Source: Candidatus Dojkabacteria bacterium
GTDB taxonomy: Bacteria; Patescibacteriota; Dojkabacteria; SC72; JAHDCA01
DNA length: 25,903 nucleotides
Assembly (NCBI GenBank): GCA_020630115.1
Contig: JAHDCA010000002.1
Span: 1-25,903, forward strand
Direction: 5' to 3'
Shown here: positions 6,724 through 25,565 of the stretch, in pieces
Numbering within the stretch: the stretch's first letter is position 1
Layout: each line of letters begins with the position of its first letter
Made by a program: the position numbers and the translations under genes
Notes under the pieces: generated by a model
Database searches by the model: none
Told to the model about the DNA's origin: nothing
Seen by the model: the letters and a program-made list of their open reading frames with translations, nothing else

Positions 6724-6966
6724 TTAACCACCGAAGAAAACGCTACCTCCAGAACAACCACAACATAGTGTAAACACCAAAGTAACGCCGATGGCCATTA
6801 TCAAGAAACTCCTATCTCTCTGAGATAAATCAAAGTTAAAGAAGTTGTTAGTATTAAAAGATGATGCTTGAGCACTCCTAGTTTGAGAATTTGGTTTAGC
6901 CTTGGAAGATGACTTCTTAGTAGCTTTAAAGCTGTCAACTTTTTTAGCTTTCTTTACTGTTGCCAT
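6724..6966 (-). CDS. Small Lys/Ser-rich protein with a C-terminal TM ending in CCGC
   Basis: 80 aa with a basic low-complexity N-terminus and hydrophobic FLIMAIGVTLVFTL followed by CCGCSGG. Overlaps the 3' end of the methyltransferase gene by 23 nt. Confidence 0.6.
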   Translation of the reverse strand: MATVKKAKKVDSFKATKKSSSKAKPNSQTRSAQASSFNTNNFFNFDLSQRDRSFLIMAIGVTLVFTLCCGCSGGSVFFGG

Positions 6967-7654
6967 TTGTTTTTTGCAAGATTAAATAGTAATTAAGTTT
7001 ACCAGATTTCCCATCTGATCTAAAACTTTCAATTTTATATCCTTTAGCTCTAAGTATCTCTTCGACCTCCAGTATCTCTTCATCACTGAAGAAGTGACAG
7101 AACCTTTCGGATTCAACACCTCTTTTCCAAGTATTAATATAATCATCACCTGAAAACTTTCCACTGGTTTCCAGGGTTTTCCCCAACTTTGATCGACCTG
7201 TCCACATCGTAACCACAACATACCCACCTTCTACACATAGTTTTCCACACTCATCAATAAAATCTACCCTCTGCTGAAAGTCCGGAATATGATGGATAAC
7301 CCCAAAGGCAACAACGGTGTCAAATTTCTCGATTGGCCACTTGTCATTAAACATATCCCAACTTTCAAAAACATACCTTTCATCGAAAAACTCCTTAGCT
7401 TGATTGATCCACTTAGTAGCGAAATCCAAACCAAGAAACCTACTTGGTTTAGTGCCATTCTTAAGCAGGTAATTAAGAAACCTCCCATTACCACAACCAA
7501 TATCAACTACTGTCTTCCCAACTACTTCCATCCTCATAAGCGCAGCCCAACCATCCCAGGAAGCATCTATAGAAAGATGCGAACTATTATTGACTTCAAA
7601 GATTTTATTATAGAAATTTTTATTAATTTCATTAAATTCGTCGTTTTCTAGCAT
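6944..7654 (-). CDS. Class I SAM-dependent methyltransferase, Trm9/ALKBH8-like
   Basis: Motif I (VVDIGCGNGRFL), motif II (LGLDFA), FDTVVAFGVIHHIP, GGYVVVTMW and C-terminal RFCHFF...NYYLILQK. Methyltransferase function is confident; the Trm9 subfamily assignment is an inference. Confidence 0.9.
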   Translation of the reverse strand: MLENDEFNEINKNFYNKIFEVNNSSHLSIDASWDGWAALMRMEVVGKTVVDIGCGNGRFLNYLLKNGTKPSRFLGLDFATKWINQAKEFFDERYVFESWDMFNDKWPIEKFDTVVAFGVIHHIPDFQQRVDFIDECGKLCVEGGYVVVTMWTGRSKLGKTLETSGKFSGDDYINTWKRGVESERFCHFFSDEEILEVEEILRAKGYKIESFRSDGKSGKLNYYLILQKTNGNSKES

Positions 7655-7659
7655 AGTGT

Positions 7660-7667
7660 ATTATAAT
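7660..7667. promoter_or_regulatory. Palindromic bidirectional -10 element ATTATAAT
   Basis: Gives TATAAT on both strands, each exactly 5 nt before a start codon (ATG 7654 minus, GTG 7673 plus). Confidence 0.7.
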
Positions 7668-7672
7668 CCAAT

Positions 7673-9445
7673 GTGAGAAAAGAATGGAATAAAAACAAAT
7701 TTGATCCAACAGGCTATCTTTACGAGATCGGAAACATCCTAAAACTCATCGAAAAGTCTGAAAAATGGAACGCTGATATCTTAAGAAAAGCCCTGAAACA
7801 ATTCCCCAAAGATGGGAAGGAACTATTCTCTAAAGATCAGTTACTTGCAGGATACAAAGAGCTTATCGCGCAAGGCAAGACAGTTGAGAAAGCTATCCTC
7901 AACACTAGACTTAAAATGAAGCCAATGAGAACACACTCAGGTGTTGCTACAGTTACAGTCCTTACCAAACCTTACCCATGCCCCGGCAAATGCATTTTCT
8001 GCCCTAATGACGTAAAGATGCCAAAGAGTTACCTTTCTGATGAACCAGGTGCTCAAAGAGCAGAGCGTAATAACTTTGATCCGTATCTCCAAACTTACAA
8101 TAGGCTTTTGGCTTTGGAAACAATCGGACACAAGGTAAGCAAAGTCGAATTAATTATTCTTGGTGGAACCTGGTCTTTCTACCCTACGCAATATCAAATC
8201 TGGTTTGTTAAAGAATGCTTCAGAGCAATGAATGATTTCGGTAATAAAGACGGGCGGGATACTGTCGAAACTCAGAATATATTTGAAGAAGCAGACAAGA
8301 TCCCTGCTCATTCTAAGGAAGGAAAACTAAAGACTTACAACGATCTGGTCACACATGTTGTTAATGAACAAGGGAGTGAATTTTTTAGCCCAAATGAACT
8401 TTCGGATTGGGAAGAATTATACCAGCAGCATAAAATTAATGAGGTAGCTAAAACAAGATGTGTCGGTCTAGTAATCGAAACAAGACCAGATTATATTGAT
8501 CCTGATGAAGTTATAAAGATTCGAAAGCTTGGAGCAACTAAGGTACAAATCGGTATTCAAAGTTTAAACGATAAGGTTCAAGCTATGAATATGAGGGGAC
8601 ATGGTAGAAGAGAAGCTGGTCAAGCATGTAGCTTACTTAGACAGGCTGGCTTTAAAGTTCATGCACACTGGATGCCAAATCTGTACGGATCGAATCCAGA
8701 GTTAGATATAGCTGATTATGATCAGCTATGGGAAGAAGATGTTAGACCAGACGAGCTCAAGATTTACCCATGTTCGATTATTAAAAATACTAGACTATTT
8801 GAGCTCTACAATGAAGGTAAGTACAAACCTTATACTTATGATGAGTTGCTTAAAGTACTCACAGAGGTTATGCCTCACACTCCACGTTACTGCAGACTAA
8901 CTAGAGTTGTAAGAGATATTCCTTCTACAGATATCGTCGCAGGCAACAAACTTACTAACTTTAGACAAATCGCTGAGAGCGAATTAGATAAAAATGGTGT
9001 ACGTTGTGAATGCATAAGATGTAGAGAGATAAAACTTCAAACAATCACTCATCAAGATATAGAAGTTGAGGAAATTGAATATTCGACTAAAACTTCACAA
9101 GAAGTTTTCATTTCTTTCAAAACTAAAACTGACGATAAGATTTGTGGTTTTTTAAGGCTCTCACTTCCAAACGAAAAATCATTCATTGAAGAGCTCTCAG
9201 ACAACGCTATTATCCGTGAAGTACATGTTTATGGAAAGCTAGTGGGGATCGATAAGGAAAACACGTCAAACTCAAGCCAACATCTTGGGCTCGGTAAACA
9301 AATGATTGCAAGATCCCAGCAGATCGCATCATCCAAAGGCTACTCGAAGATATCAGTAATCTCTGCTATTGGTACTAGAGAATATTACGAGAAACTAGGA
9401 TTCGAGATGAATAGTGACCAACTTTACATGCATAAAGATGCCTAA
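7673..9445 (+). CDS. elp3: Elp3 tRNA uridine(34) acetyltransferase (radical SAM plus GNAT/KAT domain)
   Basis: Motifs KPMRTHSGVATVTVLTKPYPCPGKCIFCP (CxxxCxxC), PKSYLSDEPG, LIILGGTW, GLVIETRPDY, DELKIYPCSII, RLTRVVRDIP, CECIRCRE, IIREVHVYG, QHLGLGKQM and VISAIGTREYYEKLGF. Confidence 0.94.
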   Translation: MRKEWNKNKFDPTGYLYEIGNILKLIEKSEKWNADILRKALKQFPKDGKELFSKDQLLAGYKELIAQGKTVEKAILNTRLKMKPMRTHSGVATVTVLTKPYPCPGKCIFCPNDVKMPKSYLSDEPGAQRAERNNFDPYLQTYNRLLALETIGHKVSKVELIILGGTWSFYPTQYQIWFVKECFRAMNDFGNKDGRDTVETQNIFEEADKIPAHSKEGKLKTYNDLVTHVVNEQGSEFFSPNELSDWEELYQQHKINEVAKTRCVGLVIETRPDYIDPDEVIKIRKLGATKVQIGIQSLNDKVQAMNMRGHGRREAGQACSLLRQAGFKVHAHWMPNLYGSNPELDIADYDQLWEEDVRPDELKIYPCSIIKNTRLFELYNEGKYKPYTYDELLKVLTEVMPHTPRYCRLTRVVRDIPSTDIVAGNKLTNFRQIAESELDKNGVRCECIRCREIKLQTITHQDIEVEEIEYSTKTSQEVFISFKTKTDDKICGFLRLSLPNEKSFIEELSDNAIIREVHVYGKLVGIDKENTSNSSQHLGLGKQMIARSQQIASSKGYSKISVISAIGTREYYEKLGFEMNSDQLYMHKDA

Positions 9446-20503: not shown

Positions 20504-20508
20504 TAAGC

Positions 20509-20514
20509 TATAAT
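20509..20514 (+). promoter_or_regulatory. -10 box (TATAAT), probably giving a leaderless transcript
   Basis: Perfect TATAAT 7 nt before ATG 20522. Confidence 0.5.
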
Positions 20515-20521
20515 CATTCAT

Positions 20522-20971
20522 ATGAAGATTAATTACAAGTCAAATCGACTAACACCAAACAGAAAGATCCGTAACCAAAATAACTCACAGTTAATAATCC
20601 TAGGAGTAATTGCACTACTAATAATCAGCGCTTACCTATACTTTATCGTATTTAAACCTGAGTTTGAGATCAAATCGAACCACTTTGCATCAGATACACA
20701 AACCCAAGAAATAATAGATGAAGGCTTCACTGTGGGTGACAGGATAACTATAAGTGCAATACTAGAGTCAGATAAAGACACAGATGAGCAGATCAATGTT
20801 TTAGTAAAAGTAGTAGATACTGATGGGAAATTAGTCTATGAAACAGATTTCAAGTCAGGAACAAATATTCAAAGAAATCTTACTATCAATAAAGTCTTAG
20901 CCCCTGGTGAATACTCCTATACTATCGAATCAGGCTCACAAAAAGCTAGTGGAGAATTTGAAATAGAATAA
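20522..20971 (+). CDS. Single-pass membrane protein with an Ig-like domain
   Basis: Basic N-terminus, TM LIILGVIALLIISAYLYFIVF and beta-rich FTVGDRITIS...LAPGEYSYTIE. Confidence 0.8.
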   Translation: MKINYKSNRLTPNRKIRNQNNSQLIILGVIALLIISAYLYFIVFKPEFEIKSNHFASDTQTQEIIDEGFTVGDRITISAILESDKDTDEQINVLVKVVDTDGKLVYETDFKSGTNIQRNLTINKVLAPGEYSYTIESGSQKASGEFEIE

Positions 20972-21146
20972 TACACATCTCTTTCAAGTACTTTGATCAA
21001 TATGACCTAAGTCTATCATTAATCATAAGTCACCATTGAAACTCTTTTAATTACTTTAAGCGACTAAGCTTCACTTAAATTGGTAATTAACCCAACTCTT
21101 TTTCGAAACACCTCCATGTATTTCCGAGCTAGTGCTCAGACTCACA

Positions 21147-21564
21147 TGGAGACGACGGGAGTCGAACCCGTGTCCAGTTAGTTTCGTCTAATACCCTTGT
21201 ACAAGTTTTGCAGGTTTAATTTCCCGCGGTTACCAAAAACCTACAAACAATAACCTCGGTCGAACTATTTTAAATTCTTCTGAACCAGCTAGCTCTTGTT
21301 ACTAGTCAGATATATCATCGCTGATGGAACAGCTACAGAACCTCACGATGAGAAAGTGTCCGTAACTGCATCCCCCTCGGGGGATGTTCATTAAAGGTTA
21401 AGCATTAAATGCAAATTGTGCACCTGTTAGAAAAGCGTTAAGCTTCTCAACTTGACCTTGAATGAAAGTTGAAAGTCTGTTTCCAACTAAACGTGATAGT
21501 TAAAGGATATCAATCCTACCTGAGGTATTAGCCTCTGCTAATGTCGAAAACCAAATACGTCCCC
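21147..21564 (-). ncRNA. ssrA: tmRNA (one-piece, 418 nt, CCA not encoded)
   Basis: 5' end GGGGACGTATTTGGTTTTCGAC and 3' end GGACACGGGTTCGACTCCCGTCGTCTCCA. Acceptor stem GGGGACG/CGTCTCC has the G3:U alanine determinant, plus a T arm and an internal tag ORF. Confidence 0.93.
21398..21484 (-). other. tmRNA proteolysis-tag reading frame: (A)GNRLSTFIQGQVEKLNAFLTGAQFAFNA*
   Basis: Resume context TTTAGTT-GGA resembles E. coli AATAGTC-GCA. 28 codons run to TAA at 21400-21398. Confidence 0.75.
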
Positions 21565-23995: not shown

Positions 23996-24652
23996 CTATT
24001 TCTCATAATCAAACTTACTTATATCGAAGGTCATATGATAATCTCCAATCTCTTCAAGCTTCTCTCGCTCAGTATTTGCTTCATCGTAAGTCCTTCCATT
24101 TGTATCTTTTACATACAATTGTGGTGCAGCTGAATATCCAAAAATACTTGCAAGACTCATGACATATTTTTCATTTTCAAGTCCCAATTGACCAAGGTTT
24201 AAATAGTTTTGGTCATAATTATTTTTTATCCATAAGTCATACTGCTTATCGGTAGCAAGCTCTTCTGAGTTAATAAAAATATGAAACTCATCAGCACCAA
24301 AACCGTTAAGTAGCGTCCAAATATTTCCGACATTTTTGTTCTCATATGAAAGAATATTATCGGTAAAACCACCAAGCTCGTCTTCATCTCCATTAAATGA
24401 CCTAGCCGTAGCCTCAAAGTACTCCTCACCATTATTTTTTTCCAACACTGATGTCCTTGCTGCTTCTCTTGTCACAATAGTATTTTCATCTATAACAAAC
24501 TCTACATCATCTACCTCGATAGGTTTATCATTTGTAGTTTTTGCTTCAGACTTCCCAGAATAATCTCTATAAATGAGATATCCTGAAGCAATGAAAGTTA
24601 CCAAGATAAAAGCTATTAAAATGATATTATAATAAGATTTTTTTAATTTCAT
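23996..24652 (-). CDS. Membrane-anchored hypothetical protein
   Basis: N-terminal TM. The C-terminal YDLWIK...LNLGQL pattern loosely resembles the RskA-type extracytoplasmic domain (weak). Ends 2 nt before the next gene. Confidence 0.75.
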   Translation of the reverse strand: MKLKKSYYNIILIAFILVTFIASGYLIYRDYSGKSEAKTTNDKPIEVDDVEFVIDENTIVTREAARTSVLEKNNGEEYFEATARSFNGDEDELGGFTDNILSYENKNVGNIWTLLNGFGADEFHIFINSEELATDKQYDLWIKNNYDQNYLNLGQLGLENEKYVMSLASIFGYSAAPQLYVKDTNGRTYDEANTEREKLEEIGDYHMTFDISKFDYEK

Positions 24653-24655
24653 ATG

Positions 24656-24661
24656 TATAAT
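24656..24661 (+). promoter_or_regulatory. -10 box (TATAAT), probably giving a leaderless transcript
   Basis: Perfect TATAAT 7 nt before ATG 24669, within a 16-bp divergent gap. Confidence 0.5.
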
Positions 24662-24668
24662 TAATCAT

Positions 24669-25565
24669 ATGCCAAAATCTAAGTCAAGAAAAACACTTAT
24701 AGTAACCTCATTTTTTTTCATTATCTTTTTAATGATACTCACATCACTACTTTCAGAAATCAAAGCCTCGAAGAAGATTGTATCTCAAAATCTCATTATC
24801 GATTTATATGAATTAGATACCCAAGTCAATATTCAATACCTAGAGGTGCCTGGTTTATTATGGAAAACAGAGCATCTTACATTGGGGTTTACAAACGAAG
24901 ACCTTAGCGACAATGGAAAAATTCTTAGTCGAAGGAGTTTTGGTAACTCAACTAGTCCCTCTATAAATTTTGAAGAAGATAAATTCAAGTTTAAAGTCTC
25001 TCCTAATAACCATGACTTCAGTCAATATAATATCCAGGTCGAACATGAGAACCTAAAAGTCTCCGGAGAAACACTAGCCAGTGAAACCCTAAGAAATCAC
25101 AAGATTAACACCGATGTAATTTTTATAACTGATCTCCAAGTTGAGTTTCAAAATCAGAAATATGAAGGACGCAAATCTATATATAGACAACAAACAGTTT
25201 CACAAAAACAGCAAGAATTATCAACTCCAGATATAAAATCCAACATCAGCTGGGGATATTCGGATGGAAGAGTTATTTACTTAGACCAATCAAATAGCGA
25301 AACAAACCCTACACTTGACCATGCTTACTTTGTAGACTTTAAAATCGCAAATGATGGCAACCCTTACTCATCTCTCCATACTAATTATAAGTACAAAGAA
25401 ACTTATCGATCAATGATTTGGGATTCACTTGAGTCTGACTCACTTGATATTATTGTACAACCAGATGCAAGAGTAGATGGTCAATTCACTCATACTTATG
25501 GACAAGCGTATTCCGAAAATTTTAACTTAAAAAACTTCCCTGTATTTGTCTTCTTAGAAAACTAA
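24669..25565 (+). CDS. Exported or membrane-anchored hypothetical protein (beta-rich)
   Basis: 298 aa with a basic N-terminus and hydrophobic LIVTSFFFIIFLMILTSLL. No family recognised. Confidence 0.75.
   Translation: MPKSKSRKTLIVTSFFFIIFLMILTSLLSEIKASKKIVSQNLIIDLYELDTQVNIQYLEVPGLLWKTEHLTLGFTNEDLSDNGKILSRRSFGNSTSPSINFEEDKFKFKVSPNNHDFSQYNIQVEHENLKVSGETLASETLRNHKINTDVIFITDLQVEFQNQKYEGRKSIYRQQTVSQKQQELSTPDIKSNISWGYSDGRVIYLDQSNSETNPTLDHAYFVDFKIANDGNPYSSLHTNYKYKETYRSMIWDSLESDSLDIIVQPDARVDGQFTHTYGQAYSENFNLKNFPVFVFLEN

What the first reader, a model, noticed from the sequence alone, without database searches (positions are those of the whole stretch)
7652..7675. One palindromic -10 box driving two putative leaderless mRNAs in opposite directions
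Seen: CAT-agtgt-ATTATAAT-ccaat-GTG, a symmetric layout with TATAAT on each strand exactly 5 nt from its start codon and no room for an RBS or operator. Each -35 region lies inside the other gene. Established: bidirectional promoters arising from -10 symmetry are known in bacteria. Unusual here: both transcripts would begin at protein start codons of two enzymes plausibly acting in consecutive steps. Inference: a minimal device that enforces coupled expression.
Basis: partly seen in the sequence, partly recalled or inferred. Interest (0 to 1): 0.7.

Follow-up and report, generated by a model that had tools for sequence, protein, structure and literature searches.

The report
Shared palindromic -10 box, two leaderless genes
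In a tiny-genome Dojkabacteria-like bacterium, one 8-bp palindrome (ATTATAAT) in an 18-bp gap most likely serves as the promoter for two back-to-back genes whose mRNAs start at their start codons, but this looks like a by-product of a compact, leaderless genome rather than a device coupling the two enzymes.

Summary
Window 7652-7675 reads CAT-agtgt-ATTATAAT-ccaat-GTG, with TATAAT on each strand 5 nt from a start codon. Both starts are forced, because an in-frame TAA lies inside the palindrome on each strand.

The genes are Elp3 (+) and a Trm9-family SAM methyltransferase (-).

The leaderless reading is well supported, but only statistically:
- In this 0.9-Mb genome, TATAAT starts at -11 from start codons 37 times, against about 1.5 per background position.
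- Shine-Dalgarno motifs are nearly absent.
- The -35 region carries almost no information.
- The signal sits at first genes of transcription units, not at genes inside operons.

No RNA data exist, so no transcription start site was seen.

The "coupling device" reading is not supported:
- The same layout joins unrelated genes elsewhere in the genome (contig 23, 18 bp; contig 35, 20 bp).
- The Elp3-methyltransferase pair is divergent and adjacent in 34 of 100 loci examined, across several phyla, but its spacing ranges from overlapping to more than 100 bp. The closest relative is not adjacent at all.
- Published work shows that shared -10 boxes make RNA polymerases compete.

Verdict: a clean, extreme instance of the known symmetric bidirectional promoter, here doubly leaderless. 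Interest is moderate.

The parts
6944..7654 (-). Trm9-family class I SAM methyltransferase gene (236 aa, P0001), ATG at 7654-7652
   Evidence: ORF list and translation. Pfam Methyltransf_11/12/23/25. The profile of 25 Elp3-linked orthologues has Trm9 (5cm2_Z) as best PDB match, 5.6e-15 over profile positions 26-232. Orthologue N-termini align to within a few residues of M1.
7655..7659 (-). 5-nt discriminator of the leftward promoter (ACACT on the - strand); T at -1 and A at +1
   Evidence: Sequence. A 5-nt hexamer-to-start gap is the commonest class genome-wide: 60 ORFs, against 55 with 6 nt.
7660..7667 (.). Perfect 8-bp palindrome ATTATAAT. Two consensus -10 hexamers overlap by 4 bp (TATA), and it holds an in-frame TAA stop upstream of each gene.
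   Evidence: Sequence. TATAAT at -11 is enriched about 24-fold genome-wide. The same octamer sits centrally in two other short divergent gaps of this genome.
7662..7667 (+). -10 hexamer TATAAT for Elp3; predicted start site G7673
   Evidence: No TTGACA-like -35 and no TGn, which is typical here because the -35 region carries almost no information.
7660..7665 (-). -10 hexamer TATAAT for the methyltransferase; predicted start site at 7654 (A of ATG on the - strand)
7668..7672 (+). 5-nt discriminator of the rightward promoter (CCAAT); T at -1 and G at +1
   Evidence: Sequence.
7673..9445 (+). Elp3 gene (590 aa, P0002; radical SAM plus GNAT), GTG start
   Evidence: TIGR01211 at 507.7 bits against a cutoff of 350. 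Pfam Radical_SAM, Radical_SAM_C and GNAT. PDB Elp3 structures match at up to 4e-104. The N-terminal FDP motif aligns with orthologues whose ATG follows TATAAT by 5-6 nt.

Best explanation
The 18-bp gap is a complete bidirectional promoter built from a single symmetric -10 element.

Proposed mechanism:
- The housekeeping sigma-70-type RNA polymerase reads TATAAT on either strand as the non-template -10.
- It starts 6 nt downstream, at G7673 (Elp3) or at A7654 on the other strand (methyltransferase).
- Both mRNAs therefore begin at their start codons and are translated as leaderless messages, with no Shine-Dalgarno site.
- The two polymerase footprints overlap completely, so each initiation event goes one way or the other.
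- The ratio is set by flanking sequence and by the start codon (ATG versus GTG).

This is how first genes of transcription units are normally expressed in this Dojkabacteria-like Patescibacteria genome: -10-dominated promoters, almost no -35 information, and leaderless mRNAs. Where two such genes diverge and the spacer has shrunk, the two boxes merge into one.

Shown: the sequence layout, the forced starts, the genome-wide positional signal, its recurrence elsewhere, and its lack of conservation in orthologous pairs. Inferred: the start sites, use of both directions, and translation from a 5' GUG.
For: Layout and forced starts.

Genome-wide signal in the 0.9-Mb genome:
- TATAAT starts at -11 in 37 ORFs and at -12 in 23, against 1.55 per background position.
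- 148 of 750 ORFs have a 5/6-or-better -10 starting at -13..-10, against 43 at control offsets.
- The same peak appears in a complete genome of the same family, G001.

It behaves as a promoter, not a translation signal:
- It is found at 28% of divergent genes and 31% of co-directional genes with 16-60-bp gaps.
- It is found at 9% of tightly packed internal genes (2% in G001).
- SD-like motifs are rare and show the opposite trend.

Promoter make-up: the -35 region has under 0.1 bit per position and TGn is weak.

Recurrence:
- Three exact CAT-N5/6-ATTATAAT-N5/6-ATG/GTG sites occur in this genome, at contig 65:7652, contig 23:824 and contig 35:1910.
- Further shared boxes of 7 and 10 bp occur at 17- and 21-bp gaps.
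- Divergent gaps cluster at 14-21 bp: 8 of the 22 pairs with gaps of 0-60 bp, binomial p = 0.005.

Relatives: Elp3 in most Patescibacteria loci has (TGn)TATAAT 5-9 nt before its start.

Literature: divergent transcription from shared symmetric -10 elements is established (bioRxiv 10.1101/2020.01.31.928960).
Against: - No transcription start site or RNA data exist for this organism, so everything rests on sequence statistics.
- Neither direction has a recognisable -35 or an extended -10, and the sigma-70 consensus scan did not flag the site.
- GTG is a minority start among leaderless-like ORFs: 12 of 148.
- The hexamer register (4-bp overlap; predicted start sites 19 bp apart) is not the commonest published class, in which A-11 pairs with T-7.
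- The 16S rRNA keeps its CCUCC anti-SD, so leadered translation is not excluded in principle.
Confidence: 0.7

Rival explanations
1. One reading: the palindrome is a selected minimal device that enforces coupled, stoichiometric expression of two consecutive tRNA-modification enzymes (Elp3, then a Trm9-like methyltransferase).
For: - Divergent adjacent pairing of the two genes is kept in 34 of 100 Elp3 loci, across Patescibacteria, Chloroflexi, Acidobacteria, delta-proteobacterial, Verrucomicrobia and Spirochaete bins. This argues for selection on co-location or co-regulation.
- Compact gaps of 17-22 bp with one -10 region recur for this pair in L057, L079 and L069.
Against: - Spacing in orthologous pairs runs from overlapping to more than 100 bp. 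In four further loci the methyltransferase lies 0.6-1.5 kb upstream.
- The same-family relative G004 has two separate TATAAT boxes 56 bp apart.
- In the closest relative, G002 (66% Elp3 identity), the methyltransferase lies 1.9 kb away.
- The identical 5+8+5 layout joins an RlmKL-like methyltransferase to MsrAB. A 6+8+6 layout joins a GT2 glycosyltransferase to an unknown protein.
- At shared -10 boxes the two polymerase orientations compete. Activating one direction represses the other (PMC12825309).
- The start codons differ (ATG versus GTG), so output is not expected to be equal.
Confidence: 0.1
2. Only one direction uses this -10 box. The other gene is transcribed from a promoter inside its neighbour's coding sequence and translated from a short leader without a Shine-Dalgarno site.
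For: - Other -10-like AT-rich hexamers exist upstream inside both genes.
- The flanks are not symmetric. The region 40-60 bp upstream is about 95% A+T for the Elp3 direction and about 60% for the other (read).
- Elp3 starts with GTG, which is uncommon among leaderless-like ORFs.
Against: - Both hexamers are perfect consensus at the commonest 5-nt distance.
- Both start sites would follow the pyrimidine(-1)/purine(+1) rule.
- The -35 and upstream region carries little information in this genome.
- The consensus scan found no correctly oriented promoter-like site just upstream of either start.
Confidence: 0.15
3. Coincidence: an AT-rich spacer that happens to contain ATTATAAT and has no promoter function.
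For: The octamer is not rare in this 37% GC window: 3 found against 1.46 expected. Order-wide, the exact pattern (9 sites in 120 genomes) is no more frequent than its backwards control (about 18 sites).
Against: - Position-specific enrichment of TATAAT at -11/-12 is about 15- to 24-fold.
- Both flanking genes need a promoter, and nothing else fits in 18 bp.
- Three exact copies of the layout occur in this one genome, with 0 backwards controls.
Confidence: 0.05

Closest known systems
Bidirectional promoters arising from -10 element symmetry (Warman et al., bioRxiv 10.1101/2020.01.31.928960 / Nat Microbiol 2021; Warman et al. 2026, PMC12825309)
   Same: One short pseudo-symmetric -10 region is read on both strands. 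Divergent start sites lie about 18-19 bp apart, there are no separate core elements, and such promoters are preferentially found between divergent genes.
   Different: - Here both predicted start sites coincide with start codons, so the promoter is the entire intergenic region.
- The hexamers overlap by 4 bp (ATTATAAT, both perfect consensus). In the commonest E. coli class they form a 7-bp TANNNTA in which A-11 pairs with T-7.
- Start sites are predicted, not mapped.
Leaderless mRNA promoters of Actinobacteria and Deinococcus-Thermus (TANNNT a few nt upstream of ATG/GTG; for example Cortes et al. 2013, seen in the reference list of PMC12641261; otherwise my own knowledge)
   Same: A -10 hexamer 5-7 nt before the start codon, no Shine-Dalgarno site, weak -35, and both ATG and GTG starts.
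   Different: The lineage is a low-GC, 0.9-Mb Patescibacteria genome. I found no paper describing leaderless expression in this group in the searched library.
Phage lambda PRM/PR (my own knowledge)
   Same: Divergent promoters, one of which (PRM) yields a leaderless cI mRNA.
   Different: The lambda promoters are separate back-to-back elements with operators between them. Here there is one shared box and no room for an operator.
Eukaryotic and archaeal Elp3 then Trm9(-Trm112) pathway to mcm5U34 (PMC6367351)
   Same: Elp3 and a Trm9-family methyltransferase are encoded together.
   Different: - This is a bacterial pair.
- No Trm112 was found in this 73%-complete genome.
- This genome's methyltransferase lacks the near-invariant F and R of the family's N-terminal FxxTR motif.
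- No tRNA modification data exist.

Membership tests
Symmetric bidirectional promoter (Warman type) | -10-like hexamers on opposite strands that coincide or overlap | tested here: met
   TATAAT at 7662-7667 (+) and 7665-7660 (-), with a 4-bp overlap.
Symmetric bidirectional promoter (Warman type) | Mapped divergent start sites 7-25 bp apart | not testable with these tools
   No RNA run holds this DNA. The predicted start sites, 7654 and 7673, are 19 bp apart.
Symmetric bidirectional promoter (Warman type) | Commonest register: position 2 (A-11) of one hexamer pairs with position 6 (T-7) of the other (7-bp TANNNTA) | tested here: not met
   Here positions 1-4 (TATA) pair with positions 4-1 of the other hexamer. 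The 7-bp register does occur elsewhere: contig 75:1669 and G001:858550. Register definition.
Symmetric bidirectional promoter (Warman type) | Mutation of the shared element lowers transcription in both directions | not tested
   Needs a bench experiment.
Bacterial leaderless mRNA | -10 hexamer 5-7 nt upstream of the start codon, with no Shine-Dalgarno site | tested here: met
   Both gaps are 5 nt and the 18 bp hold no SD-like word. Genome-wide peak at -11/-12.
Bacterial leaderless mRNA | The signal belongs to first genes of transcription units, not to internal genes | tested here: met
   28-31% at divergent genes and co-directional genes with 16-60-bp gaps, against 9% (G000) and 2% (G001) at genes with gaps of 15 bp or less.
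Bacterial leaderless mRNA | The primary 5' end is at the first base of the start codon | not testable with these tools
   No RNA data.
Elp3 (TIGR01211) | Radical SAM domain plus C-terminal GNAT domain, scoring above the curated cutoff | tested here: met
   507.7 bits against a cutoff of 350. Pfam domains. PDB Elp3 matches at up to 4e-104.
Trm9 / ALKBH8-type tRNA methyltransferase | Full-length similarity to Trm9 beyond the Rossmann core | tested here: met
   For the family profile, 5cm2_Z is the top match at 5.6e-15, covering profile positions 26-232. All other structures match the core only. P0001 alone gives only 4.4e-5.
Trm9 / ALKBH8-type tRNA methyltransferase | N-terminal FxxTR...W motif | tested here: inconclusive
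   The motif is near-invariant in 24 orthologues, but P0001 has N22 and H26 plus a 3-residue insertion. W33 and the GW are kept.
Trm9 / ALKBH8-type tRNA methyltransferase | Trm112 partner | tested here: not met
   PF03966 was not found in this 73%-complete genome, while it was found in 7 of 14 control genomes.

The most novel reading that the evidence does not exclude
In this Patescibacteria lineage a bare symmetric -10 octamer plus two 5-nt discriminators would be a complete two-gene expression unit: 18 bp carrying every cis signal for transcription and translation of both genes. That may be the smallest functional intergenic region possible for divergent bacterial genes.

Doubly leaderless divergent pairs would then fall into two states, either a shared box (17-21 bp) or separate boxes (49 bp or more), with a forbidden zone between them. 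The shared box would fix the Elp3:Trm9 ratio through mutually exclusive initiation.
Probability: 0.5. Interest if true: 0.55.

Novelty: new member of a known kind. Interest (0 to 1): 0.4.

Why it matters
If start site mapping confirms it, this locus would be a natural example of how small a working bacterial intergenic region can be: one 8-bp palindrome serving two genes with no ribosome-binding site, -35 element or operator.

It also points to a broader and apparently little-documented trait. Gene expression in Dojkabacteria-like ultra-small bacteria seems to rely on -10-only promoters and leaderless mRNAs. This affects gene-start annotation in such metagenome-assembled genomes.

It gives a compact bidirectional part to test in leaderless-competent hosts.

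It is not evidence for a special coupling mechanism.

Tried and rejected
- **RNA evidence:** two searches of public runs found only three DNA runs from one 'algae metagenome' study and no RNA run.
- **Closer relatives, to test conservation of the palindrome:**
  - single-protein scans of genome contigs and metagenome contigs found nothing;
  - the methyltransferase has no homologue above 33% identity among 5.8 billion proteins.
- **Order-wide exact-pattern search:** 9 sites in 120 genomes against about 18 for the backwards control. The exact octamer layout is not an order-wide design. I dropped that idea and kept only the within-genome recurrence.
- **Sigma-70 consensus scan:** it did not flag the site because there is no -35 match. 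I do not count this against the site, because the -35 region is uninformative genome-wide.
- **Literature:** I found no paper on leaderless expression in Patescibacteria/CPR and none on doubly leaderless bidirectional promoters. PMID 35975994 (start sites of Nanosynbacter lyticus) is not held.
- **The 80-aa ORF 6724-6966 as a possible Trm112:** rejected. It is a small membrane-type protein with no family match.
- **Archaeal TATA-box reading:** rejected. The genome is bacterial, with a bacterial 16S 3' end, Ung and tmRNA.
Full report
**1. The observation**

The sequence is exactly as described: CAT (7652-7654), AGTGT, ATTATAAT (7660-7667), CCAAT, GTG (7673-7675).
- TATAAT lies on the + strand at 7662-7667 and on the - strand at 7665-7660. 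Each is 5 nt from a start codon.
- The palindrome is limited to the octamer. The 5-nt flanks are not complementary.
- The 18 bp contain no Shine-Dalgarno-like word.
- Each reading frame is closed by a TAA inside the octamer, so neither gene can start further upstream.
- The next in-frame Met is M82 in the + gene and M40 in the - gene. Both would cut into conserved sequence.
- Orthologue N-termini agree with these starts to within a few residues.

**2. The genes**

The + gene is Elp3:
- TIGR01211 scores 507.7 bits against a cutoff of 350.
- It has Radical_SAM, Radical_SAM_C and GNAT domains.
- Solved Elp3 structures match at up to 4e-104.

The - gene is a class I SAM methyltransferase.
- On its own it matches Trm9 only weakly (5cm2_Z, 4.4e-5).
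- A profile of 25 methyltransferases encoded next to Elp3 has Trm9 as its best solved-structure match, at 5.6e-15 over almost its whole length. All other structures match the Rossmann core only.

Three caveats apply:
- This copy has N and H where the family has a near-invariant F and R (FxxTR motif).
- It has no homologue above 33% identity among 5.8 billion proteins.
- No Trm112 was found in this 73%-complete genome.

**3. The organism and its mode of expression**

The genome is 906 kb in 104 contigs, 36.7% GC. Its GTDB order includes the record named HGW-Dojkabacteria-1: locus L021 has the same contig size and coordinates as G027. I therefore call the organism a Dojkabacteria (WS6)-like member of the Patescibacteria.

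Using the first start of every long ORF, which is blind to the motif:
- TATAAT starts at -11 in 37 ORFs and at -12 in 23, against a mean of 1.55 per position further upstream.
- 148 of 750 ORFs carry a 5/6-or-better hexamer starting at -13..-10, against 43 at control offsets.
- The commonest hexamer-to-start gap is 5 nt (60 ORFs), followed by 6 nt (55 ORFs).
- A complete genome of the same family (G001, 1.04 Mb, 44.8% GC) shows the same peak.

Other properties of these promoters:
- Aligned on the hexamer, the -35 region carries under 0.1 bit per position and TGn is weak.
- SD-like words show almost no enrichment, although the 16S 3' end keeps CCTCC.

The hexamer behaves as a promoter, not as a translation signal:
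- It precedes 28% of divergently oriented genes and 31% of co-directional genes with 16-60-bp gaps.
- It precedes only 9% of tightly packed internal genes (2% in G001).
- SD-like words show the reverse trend.

Leaderless-like ORFs start with ATG 131 times, GTG 12 times and TTG 5 times.

**4. Recurrence in the same genome**

The exact layout CAT-N5/6-ATTATAAT-N5/6-ATG/GTG occurs three times in this genome, with no hits for the backwards control:

| Site | Gap | Gene pair |
|---|---|---|
| contig 65:7652 | 18 bp | Elp3 / Trm9-like methyltransferase (this locus) |
| contig 23:824 | 18 bp | RlmKL-like methyltransferase / MsrA-MsrB fusion |
| contig 35:1910 | 20 bp | GT2 glycosyltransferase / unknown protein |

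Other composite boxes also occur:
- a 7-bp TACAATA in a 17-bp gap (contig 75);
- a 10-bp ATTTTATAAT in a 21-bp gap (contig 22, thioredoxin / MerR).

Divergent gaps cluster at 14-21 bp: 8 of the 22 pairs with gaps of 0-60 bp, binomial p = 0.005.

Among divergent pairs where both genes have a leaderless-distance hexamer, gaps are either 17-21 bp or at least 49 bp, in both genomes. These are small numbers.

The partners are functionally unrelated, so the layout is generic.

**5. Conservation of this pair**

Elp3 is present in 34 of 41 related genomes.

The methyltransferase lies immediately upstream of Elp3 and divergent from it in 34 of 100 Elp3 loci. In four more loci it lies 0.6-1.5 kb upstream. 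The loci with the pair come from bins labelled:
- Patescibacteria (Dojkabacteria, WWE3, Woesebacteria, Pacebacteria)
- Chloroflexi
- Acidobacteria
- delta-proteobacteria
- Verrucomicrobia
- Spirochaetes

That is good evidence for a functional link. The spacing, however, is not conserved:
- It runs from overlapping to more than 100 bp.
- G004, in the same family, has two separate TATAAT boxes, each 5-6 nt from its ATG, in a 56-bp gap.
- In the closest relative, G002 (66% Elp3 identity), the methyltransferase lies 1.9 kb away.
- Compact gaps of 17-22 bp with one -10 region recur in unrelated lineages (L057, L079, L069), with different registers.

In most Patescibacteria loci Elp3 itself has (TGn)TATAAT or TAAAAT 5-9 nt before its start.

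Order-wide, the exact octamer layout is rare: 9 sites in 120 genomes. That is no more common than its backwards control.

**6. Comparison with what is known**

Warman and colleagues showed that prokaryotic promoters are often bidirectional because the -10 element is symmetric:
- Divergent start sites most often lie 18 bp apart.
- They lie 18-19 bp apart in Proteobacteria and Actinobacteria.

Their later work shows that the two polymerase orientations exclude each other. Activating one direction represses the other, while at low basal activity the two directions are independent.

The locus here belongs to this class, with two particulars:
- The register differs. The two hexamers overlap by 4 bp around TATA, which is the only way to fit two perfect TATAAT hexamers into 8 bp. 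In the commonest class A-11 pairs with T-7.
- Both predicted start sites are start codons, so nothing else lies between the genes.

I found no paper in the searched library describing leaderless expression in Patescibacteria, or doubly leaderless shared-box promoters. This is a limited library and does not prove novelty.

**7. Mechanism and the coupling claim**

Most likely (about 0.7), polymerase binds the octamer in either orientation and starts at G7673 or at A7654 on the other strand. Both positions have T at -1 and a purine at +1. Ribosomes then load directly on the 5' start codon.

Sharing the box makes the two genes depend on the same 8 bp and leaves no room for a regulator, so both are probably constitutive. 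It does not enforce a fixed ratio, for three reasons:
- Initiation events are mutually exclusive.
- The upstream flanks differ: about 95% A+T for the Elp3 direction against about 60% at -40..-60 (my reading).
- Elp3 uses GTG, which leaderless translation tolerates less well than ATG in tested systems (my own knowledge).

Taken with sections 4 and 5, the shared box is best seen as the end point of spacer shrinkage in a streamlined, leaderless genome.

**8. Limits**

- No start site data exist or could be found.
- No close relatives exist for a fine-scale conservation test.
- Gene starts elsewhere in the genome were called with a simple longest-ORF rule, which dilutes the signals rather than creating them.

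Noticed in passing
window 6944-9445; loci L003, L007, L018, L023-L099: The Elp3 / Trm9-family methyltransferase pair is divergent and adjacent in 34 of 100 Elp3 loci (0.6-1.5 kb apart in four more), spanning Patescibacteria, Chloroflexi, Acidobacteria, delta-proteobacterial, Verrucomicrobia and Spirochaete bins. This suggests a widespread bacterial cm5U-to-mcm5U pathway.
   Followed up: partly
window 6944-7654 (P0001): This genome's methyltransferase is an outlier in its family. It has N22 and H26 in place of the near-invariant F and R of the FxxTR motif, plus a 3-residue insertion. It has no homologue above 33% identity among 5.8 billion proteins, and no Trm112 (PF03966) was found in the genome.
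   Followed up: partly
G000 contigs 23:824-847, 35:1910-1935, 22:6431-6451, 75:1669-1685; window 24650-24671: Other divergent gene pairs have 16-21-bp gaps and a single composite -10 region. They join unrelated genes: RlmKL-like/MsrAB, GT2/unknown, thioredoxin/MerR, and a glycosyltransferase family 3 phosphorylase with an SLT-domain protein.
   Followed up: yes
G000 and G001, genome-wide: Divergent pairs in which both genes have a leaderless-distance -10 have gaps of either 17-21 bp (shared box) or at least 49 bp (separate boxes), with none between. This may be a forbidden zone for back-to-back promoters, but it rests on only 17 pairs.
   Followed up: partly
G000 contig 95 (16S 3' end); G001 near 661550: The 16S rRNA keeps the CCUCC anti-Shine-Dalgarno sequence, although SD-like motifs are almost unused. 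They are slightly enriched only at tightly packed internal genes.
   Followed up: partly
window 21144-21564 (-): Rfam finds a full-length tmRNA (73.6 bits), but ARAGORN reported no tRNA or tmRNA in the window.
   Followed up: no
window 20519-20524; locus L081: Divergent starts abut with no gap (CATATG). In the window, the + gene's TATAAT (20508-20513) lies inside the first codons of the - gene.
   Followed up: no
loci L032, L023, L057 and others: Several public bins titled 'uncultured Candidatus Saccharibacteria' or 'uncultured Pseudomonadales' carry Dojkabacteria-like Elp3 loci. L032 has the same intergenic sequence and blast coordinates as L007 (G006, same GTDB order as the window). Those organism labels look unreliable.
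   Followed up: no
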